Below, piece after piece: positions 12,264-15,529 of a stretch of DNA of 64,000 nt. Below the pieces are notes generated by a model that searched no databases, was not told where the DNA came from, and saw nothing but the letters and a program-made list of their open reading frames with translations. Where the stretch lies: contig JBAYIZ010000002.1 of the NCBI GenBank assembly GCA_041665405.1, positions 7,300 through 71,299 of the forward strand. The letters run 5' to 3'. Source of the DNA: Candidatus Magasanikiibacteriota bacterium (lineage in GTDB: Bacteria; Patescibacteriota; Patescibacteriia; Magasanikbacterales; GWA2-37-8). Within the stretch, counting starts at the first letter, position 1. Every line of letters starts with the position of its first letter. Made by a program: the position numbers and the translations under genes.

Positions 12264-12494
12264 ATGGAAGCAACCGTACAAAAAACAACTTCAAAGGGGC
12301 AGATTACTTTGCCAAAAGTATGGAGGGGGCAATTTAAAACCACTCATTTTGTGTTGGAATCTAATAGTGATATTATGATTATCCGTCCAATTTTTTTGGA
12401 TGATCCGAATAATTATAAAACCATATTTAATGCAGATAGAGATAATAAAGGCAAAGGAATATCTGCAAAGAAGTTGTTGAAGTGTATAAAATAA
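12264..12494 (+). CDS. AbrB/MazE/SpoVT-family DNA-binding protein (swapped-hairpin beta-barrel), possible regulator/antitoxin-like
   Basis: ...TSKGQITLPKVWRGQF... matches the AbrB/MazE N-terminal motif. 76 aa. No adjacent toxin-like ORF was detected. Confidence 0.55.
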   Translation: MEATVQKTTSKGQITLPKVWRGQFKTTHFVLESNSDIMIIRPIFLDDPNNYKTIFNADRDNKGKGISAKKLLKCIK

Positions 12495-12714: not shown

Positions 12715-12821
12715 ACAAATTATCAAAAAGAAGACTGGGAAACGCACACCCAGTCAAGGTAGCAAGCTTTAAGCTCGATAGGTTTCGGGTAAGGAGTAAG
12801 CTAATAAGTTGGAGGTGCGCC

Positions 12822-13646
12822 ATGGCGCGCAAAGACAAGGATCTCAAGGAAGTCCTCGGCAACTGGACGATCGGGTTCGAGGCGCTCAGCGCCCTCGTTT
12901 ACGCCATCCTCAAGAAGGGGGGCGGGATCGAGGATCTGAGTCGGCTCAGCGACAAGGAGGATACGACGGTCGTCGATCAGGTCGCCGATCTGCTCGTTCG
13001 TCCGAAGGTCGTTGCGGAACAGCTCGTGGTTCCGCCGCCCCCGCCCAAGCCCGTCGCCCTTCGGATCGAGGACTTCGTCACGCCGATGAAGGACGATCAG
13101 GTGCCGACCATCTTGCTCGTGTTCGTCAGCATCTGGCGCATGATCGCAAACTGGCTCGGCTACACCGGTCCGATCGCGTGGCGCATTCGTGAGGGCTTCA
13201 CCCTCAAGACGATTGCTCCGCAGGTGGGTCCGTGCCGCAAGGACTTCCAGTATCTCCAGAACTGGAACTTCCCGGACGAGCCGACCAAGGACTGCATCGT
13301 TTTCTGGATTCCGCGCCTCGTGGTCGGAAGTACCAGCAAGTCGGTTTCGGAACAGATGAAGCTCTTGGCAGATCTCCGTAAGCAGTTCAATCTGCCCGAG
13401 CACCACCTGTCCGGGTTCGGTTCGGTCACCGTCCTCGCCGCTCTCATTCTCGCCCATCACAAGCTGACGGGCGAGATGGTCCCGTTGGGCGGCAACTGGA
13501 CCCGCACCGACACCTGCGGTTCGGGCGGCGGTCGCCTCGGCCTGGGCTGGGTCGGGGGCGCTCTCTGCTGCGGCGTCTGGAGCTGGGATGGGGTCAGGTA
13601 CGGTAGTGTCGGCGCCTTCCCGCTGGGGGTGGAACTCGAACACTAG
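12822..13646 (+). CDS. DGR target (variable) protein; C-terminal ~37 codons form the variable repeat (VR); whole gene anomalously GC-rich (~60+% vs ~33% background)
   Basis: GGAGG RBS upstream of ATG. 3' end (13515-13625) matches TR 13981-14091 with all mismatches at TR adenines. The opposite-strand ORF 12801..13643 is a high-GC artefact. Confidence 0.7.
   Translation: MARKDKDLKEVLGNWTIGFEALSALVYAILKKGGGIEDLSRLSDKEDTTVVDQVADLLVRPKVVAEQLVVPPPPPKPVALRIEDFVTPMKDDQVPTILLVFVSIWRMIANWLGYTGPIAWRIREGFTLKTIAPQVGPCRKDFQYLQNWNFPDEPTKDCIVFWIPRLVVGSTSKSVSEQMKLLADLRKQFNLPEHHLSGFGSVTVLAALILAHHKLTGEMVPLGGNWTRTDTCGSGGGRLGLGWVGGALCCGVWSWDGVRYGSVGAFPLGVELEH
13515..13625 (+). repeat. DGR variable repeat (VR) followed by GC-rich IMH-like sequence ggggtggaactcgaacac (13626-13643)
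   Basis: 111 nt aligned codon-by-codon with TR. By hand count 22 differences, all where TR has A (e.g. AAC->GGC/TGC/GTC/AGC/TAC). All non-A positions are identical. Confidence 0.8.
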
Positions 13647-13980
13647 GACACTCGGTCCTTCGTTCGGTCACTCTTGGCAACTTGGACTCTCGTCGGTGGT
13701 ACACTTCATGTGTATCATCGGCGGGGGTCCTTCTTTATTTTATAAAAATTTGATATAATTCTATCGGCTGTATCGATAGTGTTTGCGCCCACGGGTGCAG
13801 GCCGGCAGCACAGGGTATTTATTGATCAGAATAATAAAGCGTACGCGTTTTATTAGCGTATCATTAAATATTTGAACTTCTTTTACACCCCGTGTCAAAC
13901 ATTATTGAGTTTGTGACTCAGAATTATATTCAACCCAAAGAGTATTCAATGGGTGGTGTTTCGGGTGGTGTTTGGCATAT

Positions 13981-14091
13981 AGCGATTCGGACGGCAATCG
14001 CCTCAACCTGAACTGGGTCGAGGGCACTCTCAACTGCGACAACTGGAACTGGGATGAGGACAGGAACAGTAATGTCGGCGCCTTCCCGCTG
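13981..14091 (+). repeat. DGR template repeat (TR), non-coding, AAC-rich (six AAC and two AAT codons in VR frame), followed by IMH*-like atgatgtaaatcgaaaaaac
   Basis: No start codon in frame (preceded by TGA at 13915). Adenine-containing counterpart of VR. Located between the target gene and avd/RT. Confidence 0.8.
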
Positions 14092-14106
14092 ATGATGTAA
14101 ATCGAA

Positions 14107-14134
14107 AAAACATCCTCGCTATTGAGGATGTTTT
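14107..14134. terminator. Perfect 11-bp stem hairpin aaaacatcctc-gctatt-gaggatgtttt immediately 3' of TR and 3' of avd (convergent); terminator and/or DGR RNA 3' structural element
   Basis: Inverted repeat seen directly, flanked by A-run and T-run. Confidence 0.5.
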
Positions 14135-14145
14135 GTTTGTAAATA

Positions 14146-14478
14146 TTATTTTTTCATTTCTTTTATCCACCCACCCATCATTTTACCGGCAGTTATGAGT
14201 TGTCCGGAGAGTTGGGAATATTTATTTGTGTTTAATCCTTTTATTTCCCACAAGATAGTTATGAAATATTTTAATGTGTCCAATTTTTTACTTATTTTTT
14301 CAAGGAATATTATTTTTTCTGTGCGTTGAATATAACTGGCGGTGAGAGTTAATTCAATTATGTCGGTAAAAAGATTGTCAATTTTTGTTCCCAAAGTATG
14401 TTTTGTTAATTTTGGCAAGTGGATTAGAAAACCATGCCACAATTTGTAACTTTCATTAAACTTAGTTAAAATTGGCAA
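14146..14478 (-). CDS. avd: Avd-like DGR accessory variability determinant (four-helix-bundle / '23S rRNA intervening sequence protein' family), TTG start
   Basis: 110-aa small helical basic protein with the general pattern of the four-helix-bundle family to which bAvd belongs. Sits between TR and RT, but on the opposite strand. Confidence 0.6.
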   Translation of the reverse strand: MPILTKFNESYKLWHGFLIHLPKLTKHTLGTKIDNLFTDIIELTLTASYIQRTEKIIFLEKISKKLDTLKYFITILWEIKGLNTNKYSQLSGQLITAGKMMGGWIKEMKK

Positions 14479-14488
14479 ATTTTGCTGA

Positions 14489-14498
14489 GGGGGGGGGG
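14489..14498. repeat. Homopolymeric G10 (C10 on minus strand) tract in the 43-bp divergent avd/RT intergenic region
   Basis: gctgaGGGGGGGGGGttaaaag, highly atypical in ~33% GC DNA. Potential slipped-strand phase-variation site or sequencing artefact. Confidence 0.6.
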
Positions 14499-14521
14499 TT
14501 AAAAGAACCGTTTATATTATT

Positions 14522-15529
14522 ATGAAAATTCAATTGCGTCATAGTTATAAAGAATTAGTTAATTTGGAAAATTTGTTATTTGCTTGGCAAGAGTTTATTG
14601 TTGGTAAAAAGAATAAATTGGACGCGCAAATTTTTAATCGCGATCTCATGGACAATATTGTAGAGCTTCACGAGAGTTTGGTCAATCATACATATTGTCA
14701 TGGTGGATACGAAAGTTTTTATGTCACTGATCCAAAGCGACGACATATTCACAAGGCGAGTGTGAGAGACAGGCTGTTGCATCATGCGATTTATCGGATT
14801 TTGTATCCGTTTTTTGATCGGACTTTTATTTCCGATTCATTTTCGTGTCGCGATGACAAAGGGATGCACAGGGCGTTGGATAGGTTTAGAGCGATGAATT
14901 TTGAGGTTAGTAAAAACCACGCTCGCACCTGCTGGGTTCTCAAATGTGATATTCAAAAATTTTTTGATAGTATTGACCACGGAATTTTATTGAATATTTT
15001 ATCTGAGCATATTTCTGACCGAGACATTTTGAATTTATTAAAAAATGTAATTGATAGCTATAATAGTGAAACAAACGGGGTGGGAGTGGGTTTACCACTT
15101 GGCAACCTCACTTCACAATTATTTTCCAACGTATATATGAATGTGTTTGACCAATTTGTTAAACACAAACTTAAAGTAAAAAATTATATCCGCTATGCGG
15201 ATGATTTTGTATTTCTTTCTCATGATAAACAATATTTAGAAAATTTAATACCTCAAATTCGGGATTTTTTAAGTGAAAAATTAAGATTGACTTTGCATCC
15301 TAGAAAAATATATTTGCAAACCATAGCATCAGGGATTGATTTTCTTGGGTGGAAACATTTTGCCAACCACCGTGTACTGAGAAAGACAACCCAAAAAAGA
15401 ATGATGAGAAATATTGAGATTCATCCGACAAACGAAACTTTACAATCATATTTGGGATTATTGAAACATGGGAATAGTGGAAAGATAAAAAATGAATTAT
15501 TGATTATGTCTTGGGTGTGGAGGATATGA
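14522..15529 (+). CDS. Diversity-generating retroelement reverse transcriptase
   Basis: RT motifs: ...KCDIQKFFDSIDH (motif A), LPLGNLTSQLFSNVYMN (the [ILV]GxxxSQ motif diagnostic of DGR RTs), RYADDFVF (YADD catalytic box), GIDFLGW. 335 aa. TGA stop. Confidence 0.9.
   Translation: MKIQLRHSYKELVNLENLLFAWQEFIVGKKNKLDAQIFNRDLMDNIVELHESLVNHTYCHGGYESFYVTDPKRRHIHKASVRDRLLHHAIYRILYPFFDRTFISDSFSCRDDKGMHRALDRFRAMNFEVSKNHARTCWVLKCDIQKFFDSIDHGILLNILSEHISDRDILNLLKNVIDSYNSETNGVGVGLPLGNLTSQLFSNVYMNVFDQFVKHKLKVKNYIRYADDFVFLSHDKQYLENLIPQIRDFLSEKLRLTLHPRKIYLQTIASGIDFLGWKHFANHRVLRKTTQKRMMRNIEIHPTNETLQSYLGLLKHGNSGKIKNELLIMSWVWRI

What the first reader, a model, noticed from the sequence alone, without database searches (positions are those of the whole stretch)
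14479..14521. G10 homopolymer in the 43-bp divergent avd/RT control region
A run of ten G (14489-14498) lies between the TTG start of avd (minus strand) and the ATG of the RT (plus strand). Tracts this long are highly improbable in ~33% GC DNA. They are classic slipped-strand mispairing sites, and length changes would alter promoter spacing for both divergent genes. This could make it a phase-variation ON/OFF switch for DGR mutagenesis. Alternatively it is a homopolymer sequencing or assembly artefact.
Basis: partly seen in the sequence, partly recalled or inferred. Interest (0 to 1): 0.55.

Follow-up and report, generated by a model that had tools for sequence, protein, structure and literature searches.

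The report
Conserved poly-G tract in CPR retroelements
The run of ten G between the two divergent genes of this mutagenic retroelement is real. The same tract sits at the same place in about 88% of more than 140 related elements from uncultivated bacteria, and its length drifts like a slippage-prone switch, so it is probably an undescribed control element of these elements.

Summary
G10 at 14489-14498 is the only G/C run of 7 or more in the 64-kb window (expected about 0.03). It lies in the 43-bp spacer between avd (minus strand, TTG start) and the DGR reverse transcriptase (plus strand). It is not an artefact: an independent assembly has the same G10.

In 144 related loci from Patescibacteria/CPR, fetched by RT similarity alone, 126 carry G7-G17 (mode G10) at this site, always G on the RT strand. 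The flanks are essentially unconserved. Seven loci carry (GA)n, (GT)n or (CT)n there instead. Seventy-six distant viral DGRs have no such run.

Tract length shows no phylogenetic signal. In two pairs of otherwise identical contigs it is the only difference.

One subclade does have −35/tract/−10/leaderless-ATG geometry, with the total spacer held at 16-18 bp.

Best reading (confidence about 0.5): a selected, slippage-prone simple repeat that stochastically tunes RT/Avd expression. Main rival (about 0.3): a fixed G-rich cis element whose length varies only incidentally. I found no published description.

The parts
14489..14498 (+). G10 homopolymer (G on the RT-coding strand, C10 on the avd-coding strand); the element under study
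   Evidence: A homologous G7-G17 tract is present in 126 of 144 related loci.
14479..14521 (.). 43-bp spacer between the divergent avd and RT start codons: 10 nt (ATTTTGCTGA), then G10, then 23 nt (TTAAAAGAACCGTTTATATTATT)
   Evidence: In relatives the tract lies 2-24 nt from the avd start and mostly 13-25 nt from the RT start.
14499..14507 (+). Right-flank motif TTAAAAGAA. This is the local version of the weak family consensus YTTAAAARG, which keeps a fixed distance from the tract rather than from the RT ATG.
   Evidence: Position weight matrix (every position below 0.6 bits); sequence lists.
14146..14478 (-). avd (accessory variability determinant), 110 aa, TTG start
   Evidence: Pfam PF22296 bAvd, E=3.4e-11. 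Divergent orientation is conserved in all related loci that carry both genes.
14522..15529 (+). DGR reverse transcriptase, 335 aa
   Evidence: Pfam RVT_1, E=1.9e-24. The identical protein is named as Candidatus Magasanikbacteria RT/maturase.
13982..14106 (+). Template repeat (TR); its adenines are on the RT strand
   Evidence: The same order VR-TR-(avd inverted)-tract-RT holds in all 85 resolvable loci.
13516..13640 (+). Variable repeat (VR) at the 3' end of the target gene
   Evidence: 24 of 26 VR/TR mismatches are at TR adenines. VR differs between the two assemblies of this strain at four TR-adenine positions.
12822..13646 (+). DGR target gene (274 aa, no Pfam hit), 60-70% GC
14107..14134 (.). 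11-bp-stem hairpin between TR and the avd stop codon; terminator-like on both strands
13684..13730 (+). 20-bp-stem hairpin 44 nt downstream of VR (where DGRs carry a hairpin/cruciform); followed by a T-rich run
14444..14472 (+). Promoter-like site TTGTAA-17-TAAAAT inside avd codons 3-12, pointing towards the RT. If used, transcription starts at about 14479 and G10 is at about +11 to +20 of the RT leader.
   Evidence: 9 of 12 matches; such sites are not significantly enriched. It is not conserved beyond what avd coding explains.
14472..14484 (+). Two upstream TTG codons (14472-14474 and 14482-14484). Their reading frame relative to the RT ATG is set by tract length.
   Evidence: Simulation for G8-G12. 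With G10, one uORF stops at the ATGA overlap with the RT start and the other stops at the TAA right after the tract. With G9 or G11, one of them fuses in frame to the RT.

Best explanation
The G10 is this genome's copy of a simple-sequence tract that belongs to a large family of DGR cassettes in Patescibacteria/CPR. All share the architecture target/VR, then TR, then inverted avd, then tract, then RT.

Shown: the tract is maintained by selection. It is present in 88% of loci, is pure G, and is always on the same strand, while the flanking bases are almost free to vary. Its length nevertheless drifts quickly between about G8 and G12.

Inferred: what selection keeps is a slippage-prone repeat in the short shared 5' region of avd and RT. 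Gain or loss of a G changes how much RT (and possibly Avd) is made, in a heritable but reversible way. Only part of a population would then run the costly mutagenesis at full rate.

The link between tract and expression differs between sublineages. In one subclade the tract fills the spacer of a sigma-70-like promoter for a leaderless RT mRNA; the geometry is shown, the activity is inferred. In some loci the tract abuts or enters the RT N-terminal reading frame. In this window it most likely lies in the RT 5' leader (and possibly the avd leader). There its length sets the frame of two upstream TTG codons relative to the RT ATG (inferred).

G10 is compatible with an active element, because the VR differs at adenine sites between two samples that both carry G10.
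For: (1) Family-wide conservation found without using the tract as a search criterion. G of 7 or more is present in 65 of 73 species-representative genomes and 59 of 69 metagenome loci with RT 56-77% identical. In 713 kb of these loci, 122 runs of G8 or more lie at this site and 11 elsewhere. At least seven of those 11 are the same tract on contigs too short upstream for avd to be detected, most of them cut just upstream of the RT.

(2) Flank positions carry less than 0.6 bits each, against about 2 bits per tract position.

(3) Seven loci have (GA)12-18, (GT)8-12 or (CT)10 at the same place. The (GA)n loci form a clade with varying copy number, and the others are nested among G-tract loci. A simple repeat, not G as such, therefore recurs.

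(4) Hypermutability. L177 (G11) against L178/179/181 (G10), and L072 (G10) against L151 (G9), have 0 mismatches and 1 gap in 2244 and 3615 nt. Another pair of contigs differs by 1 nt in avd-RT distance. Pairs with RT identity of 80% or more differ in length as much as distant pairs do.

(5) The length distribution has mode 10, mean 9.7 and sd 1.2. This matches the equilibrium described for phase-variable poly-G/C tracts in C. jejuni: modal length 9, G8 biased to insertion, G11 biased to deletion (PMC3401435).

(6) Subclade geometry: CTGGCA(avd start)-d1-Gn-TAnnnT-7 nt-ATG. Here d1+n stays at 16-17 while n runs from 8 to 13. TAnnnT immediately follows the tract in 15% of loci against a 3.4% background.

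(7) Loci without a tract still have diversified VRs (L102, L139). The tract is therefore accessory or regulatory, not part of the reverse-transcription chemistry.

(8) The outgroup of 76 viral DGR loci (295 kb) has no G/C run of 8 or more.
Against: No read-level data were available, so heterogeneity inside a population is unproven. Homopolymer sequencing or assembly error could explain the single-base differences between contigs.

Tract length is identical in both assemblies of this strain (G10) and within three other groups of identical contigs (4x G9, 2x G11, 2x G9).

No single geometry links tract length to either start codon or to a promoter across the family. n does not correlate with d1 or d2 (rho about 0), and the spanning-promoter test is not significant.

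The frame relation to upstream starts looks random.

Conservation across such deep divergence is unusually high for a feature kept only by second-order selection for switching.

Transcription starts are unknown.
Confidence: 0.5

Rival explanations
1. Fixed G-rich cis element. A run of 8 or more G on the RT strand (C on the avd strand) is itself the functional unit. It could be a leader element of the RT mRNA or the avd mRNA, bound by a factor (Avd/RT autoregulation, or a C/U-rich antisense RNA as in RepG-tlpB). It could also be a G:C clamp between 5' leaders of the two divergent transcripts if they overlap. Length variation would then be an unavoidable side effect.
For: Conservation is very high and the strand is strictly constant in about 125 loci over deep divergence. 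Length has a narrow range with a sharp lower bound at 8. Relatives with 0-30 nt between the two starts (L087, L139, L092, L123, L190, L191) must have their promoters inside the partner gene. This suggests the tract is transcribed in both directions. The only promoter-like site for the RT in the window places G10 in the leader. The tract is predicted to be unpaired and accessible in both leaders. A precedent exists for a length-variable G-repeat in an mRNA leader targeted by an sRNA (PMC8295292).
Against: (GT)n and (CT)n replacements cannot mimic a G run. No conserved partner was found: no covarying flanking stem (p=0.44), no covarying long-range pairing with the avd 3' region (p=0.19 and 0.37), and no Rfam family. 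Distance to both start codons is variable. The organism hardly uses Shine-Dalgarno sites (3 of 43 genes), so an SD-like role is unlikely. Complementarity of overlapping transcripts does not require a homopolymer.
Confidence: 0.3
2. G10 is the spacer of overlapping divergent promoters, so adding or removing one G changes −35/−10 spacing for both avd and RT, as with the hifA/hifB TA repeats.
For: A subclade of about 11 related loci has exactly this geometry for the RT promoter, with compensation between flank length and tract length. In the window a −35-like TTGGCA overlaps the avd start codon.
Against: In the window, TTGGCA lies 21 bp from the nearest weak −10-like hexamer (TTAAAA). The best hexamer pairs spanning the tract score 1.9 bits (plus strand) and 3.2 bits (minus strand). 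Family-wide the permutation test is not significant, and for the avd strand it is null (z=−0.4). The (GA)n tracts of 24-36 bp cannot fit in a 17-bp spacer.
Confidence: 0.1
3. DNA-structural element. A homopurine-homopyrimidine tract or alternating repeat adopts non-B DNA (rigid A-like tract, triplex, Z-DNA). It would absorb or insulate the negative supercoiling generated between divergently transcribing polymerases.
For: All the variants (Gn, (GA)n/(CT)n, (GT)n) belong to classes of non-B-forming repeats, and the site lies between divergent genes.
Against: From general knowledge, G8-G11 is shorter than the mirror repeats usually needed for stable intramolecular triplexes, and a single G10 cannot form an intramolecular three-tetrad quadruplex. 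This idea does not explain the sharp lower limit at 8 or the promoter-spacer geometry of the subclade. There is no direct evidence for it.
Confidence: 0.07
4. Chance occurrence or a sequencing/assembly artefact.
For: Homopolymers are error-prone. Several contigs start in the tract or within 12 nt of it (L042, L113, L130, L146, L185, L142, L011). One contig (L272) is joined to unrelated sequence exactly at the tract.
Against: The expected number is 0.03 per window. The same G10 appears in an independent JGI assembly. The homologous tract appears in 124 other loci from many studies and assemblers, always at the same functional position. Junk poly-C/G at contig ends looks different (L051, L131).
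Confidence: 0.01

Closest known systems
Poly-G/C contingency loci of Campylobacter jejuni (and Neisseria, Haemophilus, Helicobacter): slipped-strand phase variation
   Same: A pure G/C homopolymer of 8-13 nt in AT-rich DNA. The modal length is about 9-10, consistent with insertion bias at G8 and deletion bias at G11 (PMC3401435). Length differs between near-identical sequences. The tract is conserved at a homologous site.
   Different: Those tracts are mostly inside ORFs of surface-structure genes in host-associated pathogens. Here the tract lies between two divergent genes of a retroelement in free-living or episymbiotic groundwater CPR bacteria. It is conserved across a much deeper divergence. 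Switching has not been demonstrated.
Promoter-spacer repeats: N. meningitidis porA (poly-G) and opc (poly-C), B. pertussis fim (poly-C), H. influenzae hifA/hifB (TA repeats in overlapping divergent promoters) (recalled from general knowledge)
   Same: A simple repeat between the −35 and −10 elements sets promoter strength. hifA/B is also a divergent gene pair. About 11 related loci show this geometry for the RT promoter.
   Different: This is not the geometry of the window locus or of most family members. There is no evidence for the avd-directed promoter.
Helicobacter pylori tlpB leader G-repeat regulated by the sRNA RepG
   Same: A length-variable homopolymeric G repeat in an mRNA 5' leader, where length determines post-transcriptional output (PMC8295292). 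In the window the tract is predicted to lie in the RT leader and to be unpaired.
   Different: No C/U-rich partner RNA has been identified. The transcription starts are unknown. The tract here also reads as C10 on a second, divergent gene.
Known DGR cis elements: IMH/IMH*, the GC-rich hairpin/cruciform after VR, and the TR-RT spacer RNA with its priming site in Bordetella phage BPP-1
   Same: They belong to the same kind of cassette. The window has the VR/TR pair, the adenine bias and a strong hairpin after VR.
   Different: None of the known elements is a homopolymer or lies between avd and RT. In BPP-1, avd-TR-brt are co-directional. The 2017 survey of DGR features (PMC5758913) mentions GC-rich IMH segments and inverted repeats but no G tract. 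Tract-less relatives still diversify, so the tract is not part of the core mechanism.

Membership tests
Diversity-generating retroelement (DGR) | Reverse transcriptase of the DGR type next to a TR/VR repeat pair whose mismatches fall at TR adenines | tested here: met
   RVT_1, E=1.9e-24. VR 13516-13640 and TR 13982-14106 are 79% identical, and 24 of 26 mismatches are at TR adenines.
Diversity-generating retroelement (DGR) | Accessory gene avd | tested here: met
   PF22296 bAvd, E=3.4e-11, score above the curated cut-off.
Diversity-generating retroelement (DGR) | Ongoing adenine-directed diversification of VR | tested here: met
   Four of the five differences between L001 and L002 in this region lie at TR-adenine positions of VR.
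Simple-sequence contingency locus (slipped-strand phase variation) | Uninterrupted repeat at or above the length at which slippage becomes frequent (about 7-8 for G/C) | tested here: met
   G10 in the window; G8-G14 in 122 related loci, plus three G7 and one G17.
Simple-sequence contingency locus (slipped-strand phase variation) | Repeat number varies between otherwise identical or near-identical genomes | tested here: inconclusive
   Varies in 2 groups (G11/G10; G10/G9, with no other difference) and probably a third. Does not vary in 4 groups, including this strain (G10 in both assemblies). These are consensus assemblies only, not reads.
Simple-sequence contingency locus (slipped-strand phase variation) | The repeat is placed so that a change in length alters expression (promoter spacer, 5' leader or reading frame) | tested here: inconclusive
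   Promoter-spacer geometry holds in a subclade. In the window, tract length changes the frame of two upstream TTG codons relative to the RT ATG. No family-wide rule was found.
Simple-sequence contingency locus (slipped-strand phase variation) | Reversible, high-frequency ON/OFF or graded change of the gene product | not testable with these tools
   This needs read pile-ups, reporter fusions or single-cell data.
porA/hif-type promoter-spacer tract | −35 and −10 hexamers flank the tract with a total spacer of about 16-19 bp | tested here: not met
   In the window the best spanning pairs are TTGCTG-18-AACCGT (1.9 bits) and TTCTTT-17-CAAAAT (3.2 bits). The family-wide permutation test gives z=1.15 and −0.4. 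The feature is met in only about 11 related loci.
RepG/tlpB-type leader G-repeat | The G repeat lies in the transcribed 5' leader | tested here: inconclusive
   Supported only by a consensus promoter match at 14444-14472 and by relatives with 0-30 nt spacers. There are no transcript data.
RepG/tlpB-type leader G-repeat | A trans-acting C/U-rich RNA pairs with the repeat | not tested
   No candidate was searched for beyond the local region. No Rfam hit in 13400-14700.
Homopolymer sequencing/assembly artefact | Not reproducible in independent data and not tied to a biological position | tested here: not met
   Reproduced in L002 and at the homologous site of 124 other loci.

The most novel reading that the evidence does not exclude
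The tract is not merely a mutable dial but a strand-specific nucleic-acid element of this DGR lineage. The RT and avd mRNAs start inside each other's genes, so their 5' leaders overlap. The G10:C10 segment would be the strong nucleation point of an RNA-RNA (or RNA-DNA, R-loop) interaction that couples the output of RT and Avd. Tract length would tune that coupling. This would be a self-contained version of the RepG/G-repeat principle, built into a retroelement.
Probability: 0.15. Interest if true: 0.8.

Novelty: new variant of a known kind. Interest (0 to 1): 0.68.

Why it matters
How DGRs are regulated is largely unknown. CPR/Patescibacteria hold a very large share of known DGRs and cannot be cultured. 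A conserved simple-sequence tract at the junction of the two enzyme genes gives a concrete, testable handle.

If it is a slippage switch, a targeted hypermutator is itself under the control of a second hypermutable sequence. That is bet-hedging on when to mutate as well as on what to mutate. Tract length could then be read directly from metagenomes as a marker of DGR state.

There are also practical consequences. The tract marks this DGR lineage. It breaks assemblies at this spot. It causes inconsistent RT and avd gene calls: 25 of 120 RT homologues in the database carry a spurious or real Gly-Gly-Gly N-terminal extension.

Tried and rejected
(1) Hairpin with the G run in the loop. Complementarity between left and right flanks is no better than in permuted pairs (−6.14 against −5.98 kcal/mol, p=0.44).

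(2) Long-range pairing of G10+TTAAAAGAA with 14158-14176 at the avd 3' end (inverted repeat I6). There is no covariation in relatives (p=0.19 and 0.37) and no consistent pairing position.

(3) A conserved uORF or frame relation across the tract, or a translational frameshift switch as a general rule. The RT frame is open with an upstream start in 64 of 121 loci, which is chance-like. In the L048 subgroup, 3 of 7 loci are in frame.

(4) Family-wide compensation between tract length and distance to either start codon. Spearman rho is about 0.

(5) A Shine-Dalgarno role. The tract lies 13-25 nt from the ATG. No SD core lies between tract and ATG in 66 of 89 loci. The organism has SD-like cores upstream of only 3 of 43 genes.

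(6) A conserved −10/−35 inside avd codons beyond what coding explains.

(7) Local RNA structure of either leader: z=+0.4 to +1.5.

(8) A known RNA family: no Rfam hit.

(9) Unconditioned sampling of the P0120 locus, where the tract is inside the called RT ORF, through its Avd protein.

(10) P0037/P0039 as a length polymorphism. This turned out to be a contig joined to unrelated sequence at the tract.

(11) Literature. No paper linking DGRs to a poly-G or homopolymer tract was found. Paul et al. 2017 and one 2026 preprint could not be read.

Full report
**1. Observation**

Window positions 14489-14498 read GGGGGGGGGG, flanked by A and T. The run lies in the 43-bp spacer 14479-14521. On one side is the TTG start of a 110-aa minus-strand ORF that matches Pfam bAvd. 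On the other is the ATG of a 335-aa plus-strand reverse transcriptase (RVT_1).

The window is 36.7% GC. This is its only G or C run of 7 or more. The expected number of G runs of 10 or more is 0.011 (independent bases) or 0.032 (first-order Markov).

The DGR is canonical. VR 13516-13640, at the 3' end of a 274-aa target gene, and TR 13982-14106 are 79% identical. Of their 26 mismatches, 24 fall at TR adenines. The identical RT protein is recorded from a Candidatus Magasanikbacteria genome.

**2. Not an artefact**

The RT protein occurs on two contigs. L001 is identical to the window and is probably its source. L002 comes from an independent JGI metagenome. L002 also has G10.

The two assemblies differ at six positions in 4.9 kb. 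Four of these are TR-adenine positions inside VR. The element has therefore been diversifying in nature while carrying G10.

**3. A family-wide feature**

Using an alignment of RT homologues, I fetched 80 loci from species-representative genomes and 80 from metagenomes. Their RTs are 56-77% identical to the window's RT. These loci were chosen by RT similarity alone.

- Wherever both genes are on the contig, avd is divergent from the RT.
- In all 85 resolvable loci the order is VR, TR, 3-72 nt (mostly 25-45), inverted avd, spacer, RT, with TR adenines on the RT strand.
- In 126 of 144 loci the spacer contains a run of G7 or longer on the RT strand. The counts are G10 x43, G9 x36, G11 x19, G8 x16, G12 x5, G7 x3, G13 x2, and one each of G14 and G17.
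- By source, this is 65 of 73 species-representative genomes and 59 of 69 metagenome loci. Mean length is 9.7 with sd 1.2.
- The named hosts span many CPR lineages, including Magasanik-, Uhr-, Doudna-, Yanofsky-, Jorgensen-, Levy- and Berkelbacteria.

The tract is highly site-specific. In 713 kb of these loci there are 122 runs of G8 or more at this site and 11 elsewhere. At least seven of those 11 are the same tract on contigs too short upstream for avd to be detected, most of them cut just upstream of the RT.

The flanks are almost free. No flank position exceeds 0.6 bits. There is only a weak CGTT on the left and YTTAAAARG on the right, and the right motif keeps its distance from the tract rather than from the ATG.

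As an outgroup, 76 viral DGR loci (RT 31-41% identical, 295 kb) contain no G/C run of 8 or more. Two viral loci at 56-57% identity lack the tract and have almost no spacer.

**4. Other simple repeats at the same place**

Seven loci carry a different repeat between avd and RT: (GA)12, (GA)12, (GA)15, (GA)18, (GT)8, (GT)12 and (CT)10.

- The (GA)n loci form a clade (RT 66-72% identical) with varying copy number.
- The (GT)n and (CT)n loci are nested among G-tract loci.
- The eleven loci with no tract or a degenerate one are scattered on the tree. At least two of them (L102, L139) still have diverged VR/TR pairs.

So a simple repeat recurs at this site, and it is not essential for mutagenesis.

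**5. Behaviour of tract length**

Length shows no phylogenetic signal. Pairs with 80% or more RT identity differ by 1-2 G on average, the same as pairs at 50-70% identity (1.3-1.7).

Among groups of contigs that encode an identical RT, with the tract outside the ORF:
- L177 has G11 and L178/179/181 have G10, with 0 mismatches and 1 gap in 2244 nt.
- L072 (G10) and L151 (G9) have 0 mismatches and 1 gap in 3615 nt.
- Two contigs of the P0044 group differ by 1 nt in avd-RT distance, but no DNA was available for one of them.
- Four groups, including this strain, show no difference.

Five contigs begin inside the tract and two begin within 12 nt of it. One contig is joined to unrelated sequence at the tract. 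This points either to heterogeneity among reads or to sequencing difficulty.

The length distribution matches what is described for phase-variable poly-G/C tracts of C. jejuni: modal length 9, G8 mutating mainly by insertion, G11 mainly by deletion (PMC3401435).

**6. How it might act: tests**

Real loci are not significantly better on the RT strand (z=1.15, 13.5% of permutations as good). On the avd strand they are not better at all (z=−0.4). The window locus scores 1.9 and 3.2 bits, which is effectively no promoter.

A subclade of about 11 loci is different. It reads (C/G)TGGCA(avd start)-d1-Gn-TAnnnT-7 nt-ATG. The sum d1+n is 16-17 while n ranges from 8 to 13 (13+4, 11+6, 10+7, 9+8, 8+9). 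TAnnnT directly follows the tract in 15% of loci against a 3.4% background. There the tract is the spacer of a promoter for a leaderless RT mRNA, and total spacing is under selection.

*About 20 other loci.* These have no ATG, GTG or TTG at the position aligned to RT residue 1, and the tract lies 3-11 nt from it. In the L048 group an upstream TTG is in frame with the RT only when the tract is G9. Three loci are in frame and four are out of frame, which does not differ from chance.

*The window locus.* The only promoter-like site for the RT is TTGTAA-17-TAAAAT at 14444-14472. It is a consensus match only and is not conserved beyond what avd coding explains. If used, it would place G10 at about +11 to +20 of the leader.

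Tract length sets the frame of two upstream TTG codons (14472 and 14482). With G10, one ends at the ATGA overlap with the RT start and the other at the TAA right after the tract. With G9 or G11, one of them fuses to the RT.

Relatives with 0-30 nt between the two start codons must have promoters inside the partner gene. This suggests that in general the tract is transcribed in both directions.

*Other ideas that failed.* A flanking hairpin, pairing with the avd 3' region, significant local folding, an Rfam family, and a Shine-Dalgarno role (the organism has SD-like cores before only 3 of 43 genes).

**7. Interpretation**

What is shown:
- The tract is real.
- It is conserved by selection at a fixed functional position of a large DGR lineage.
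- It is replaceable by other simple repeats.
- It is dispensable for mutagenesis.
- It changes length quickly.

The most economical reading is a slippage-prone repeat kept because its length changes modulate RT (and perhaps Avd) production. The molecular link would differ between sublineages: promoter spacer, start-codon frame, or leader. I give this a confidence of about 0.5.

The step from length change to expression change is inferred everywhere. It has geometric support only in the subclade.

The main rival (about 0.3) is that a run of 8 or more G on the RT strand is itself a functional leader or DNA element and that length variation is incidental. Its strengths are the depth of conservation and the constant strand. 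Its weaknesses are the (GT)n and (CT)n replacements and the lack of any conserved partner.

The two-promoter spacing model for this locus (about 0.1), a non-B-DNA or topological role (about 0.07) and artefact or chance (about 0.01) follow.

**8. Comparison with what is known, and novelty**

The tract works like the poly-G/C contingency tracts of Campylobacter, Neisseria and Helicobacter. In one subclade it resembles the porA/opc/hif promoter-spacer repeats. If it lies in the leader, it resembles the tlpB G-repeat controlled by RepG (PMC8295292).

Membership in the phase-variation class is not established. Repeat type and length are met. Between-strain variation is partly met. The placement rule is inconclusive. 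Switching cannot be tested here.

None of the described DGR cis elements (IMH, hairpin/cruciform, TR-RT spacer RNA) is a homopolymer between avd and RT. The 2017 DGR survey and the 2021 global survey do not mention one. Full-text searches linking DGRs with poly-G, homopolymers or G-tracts found nothing relevant. Paul et al. 2017 could not be read.

I rate it a new variant of a known kind.

**9. Limits**

- All length comparisons are between consensus assemblies.
- Transcription starts, start codons of avd and of some RTs, and mismatch-repair status are unknown.
- The promoter scoring uses E. coli-like weights.
- The exact-protein look-ups are conditioned on tract length whenever the tract lies inside the called ORF, as for P0120.

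Noticed in passing
window 12800-13650 (target gene 12822-13646); related loci L003-L162: The DGR target gene is 60-70% GC in a 37% GC window. This is general in the family: across 90 related loci the target region averages 54.5% GC against 38% for RT and avd, and it is more than 10 points higher in 80% of loci. The cause is unknown. The whole gene is affected, not only VR.
   Followed up: partly
window 13594, 13599, 13600, 13605 (VR): The window and the independent assembly L002 differ at four TR-adenine positions of VR. This indicates recent DGR activity in natural populations. In the window, 21 of the 24 adenine-site differences between TR and VR are A-to-G.
   Followed up: yes
whole window (43 ORFs of 150 aa or more): Only 3 of 43 long ORFs have a GGAG/GAGG/AGGA core within 20 nt upstream of the start. 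This organism apparently makes little use of Shine-Dalgarno sites, and its leaders are A/T-rich.
   Followed up: partly
window 14476-14478; avd starts in L003-L162: The nearest in-frame start codon to Avd residue 1 is TTG in 94 of the 116 loci that have one; ATG is rare (11). In many loci the aligned codon itself is not a start at all (TTA, ATT, CTG). Gene callers give avd lengths of 64-124 aa for homologous genes. The true Avd N-terminus in this family is unclear.
   Followed up: partly
L048, L104, L109, L133, L148, L153, L128, L125, L003, L083, L085 and others (RT start region): About 20 related RT genes have AGA, GGA, GGG or similar in place of the initiator ATG. In some, the only canonical in-frame start is a TTG formed by TT plus the first G of the tract, or an upstream codon read through the tract as Gly-Gly-Gly. 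Of 120 database RT homologues, 25 carry such a GGG-containing N-terminal extension.
   Followed up: partly
L042, L113, L130, L146, L185 (contig starts); L142, L011; L271/L272: Assemblies often break at the tract. Five contigs begin inside it and two begin within 12 nt of it. One MEGAHIT contig (L272) is joined to unrelated sequence exactly at the tract. This indicates either read-level length heterogeneity or poor sequencing through G runs.
   Followed up: partly
window 13684-13730 and 14107-14134: A 20-bp-stem hairpin lies 44 nt after VR, where DGRs have a hairpin/cruciform. An 11-bp-stem hairpin that is terminator-like on both strands lies between TR and the avd stop. In many relatives TR runs almost up to the avd stop codon, so any RNA region 3' of TR would be antisense to avd.
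   Followed up: partly
window 12264-12494: A 76-aa ORF has a weak MazE/AbrB-type antitoxin match (E=7e-4, below the Pfam cut-off), just upstream of the DGR target gene.
   Followed up: no
L087, L139, L092, L123, L190, L191: A few related DGRs have no tract and only 0-30 nt (or even an overlap) between the divergent avd and RT starts. Their promoters must lie inside the partner gene.
   Followed up: partly
L049 (2357-2501): This locus has G17, followed by a scaffold gap (N10) and a 51-nt poly-C run between avd and RT. It is almost certainly a scaffolding artefact at the tract.
   Followed up: no
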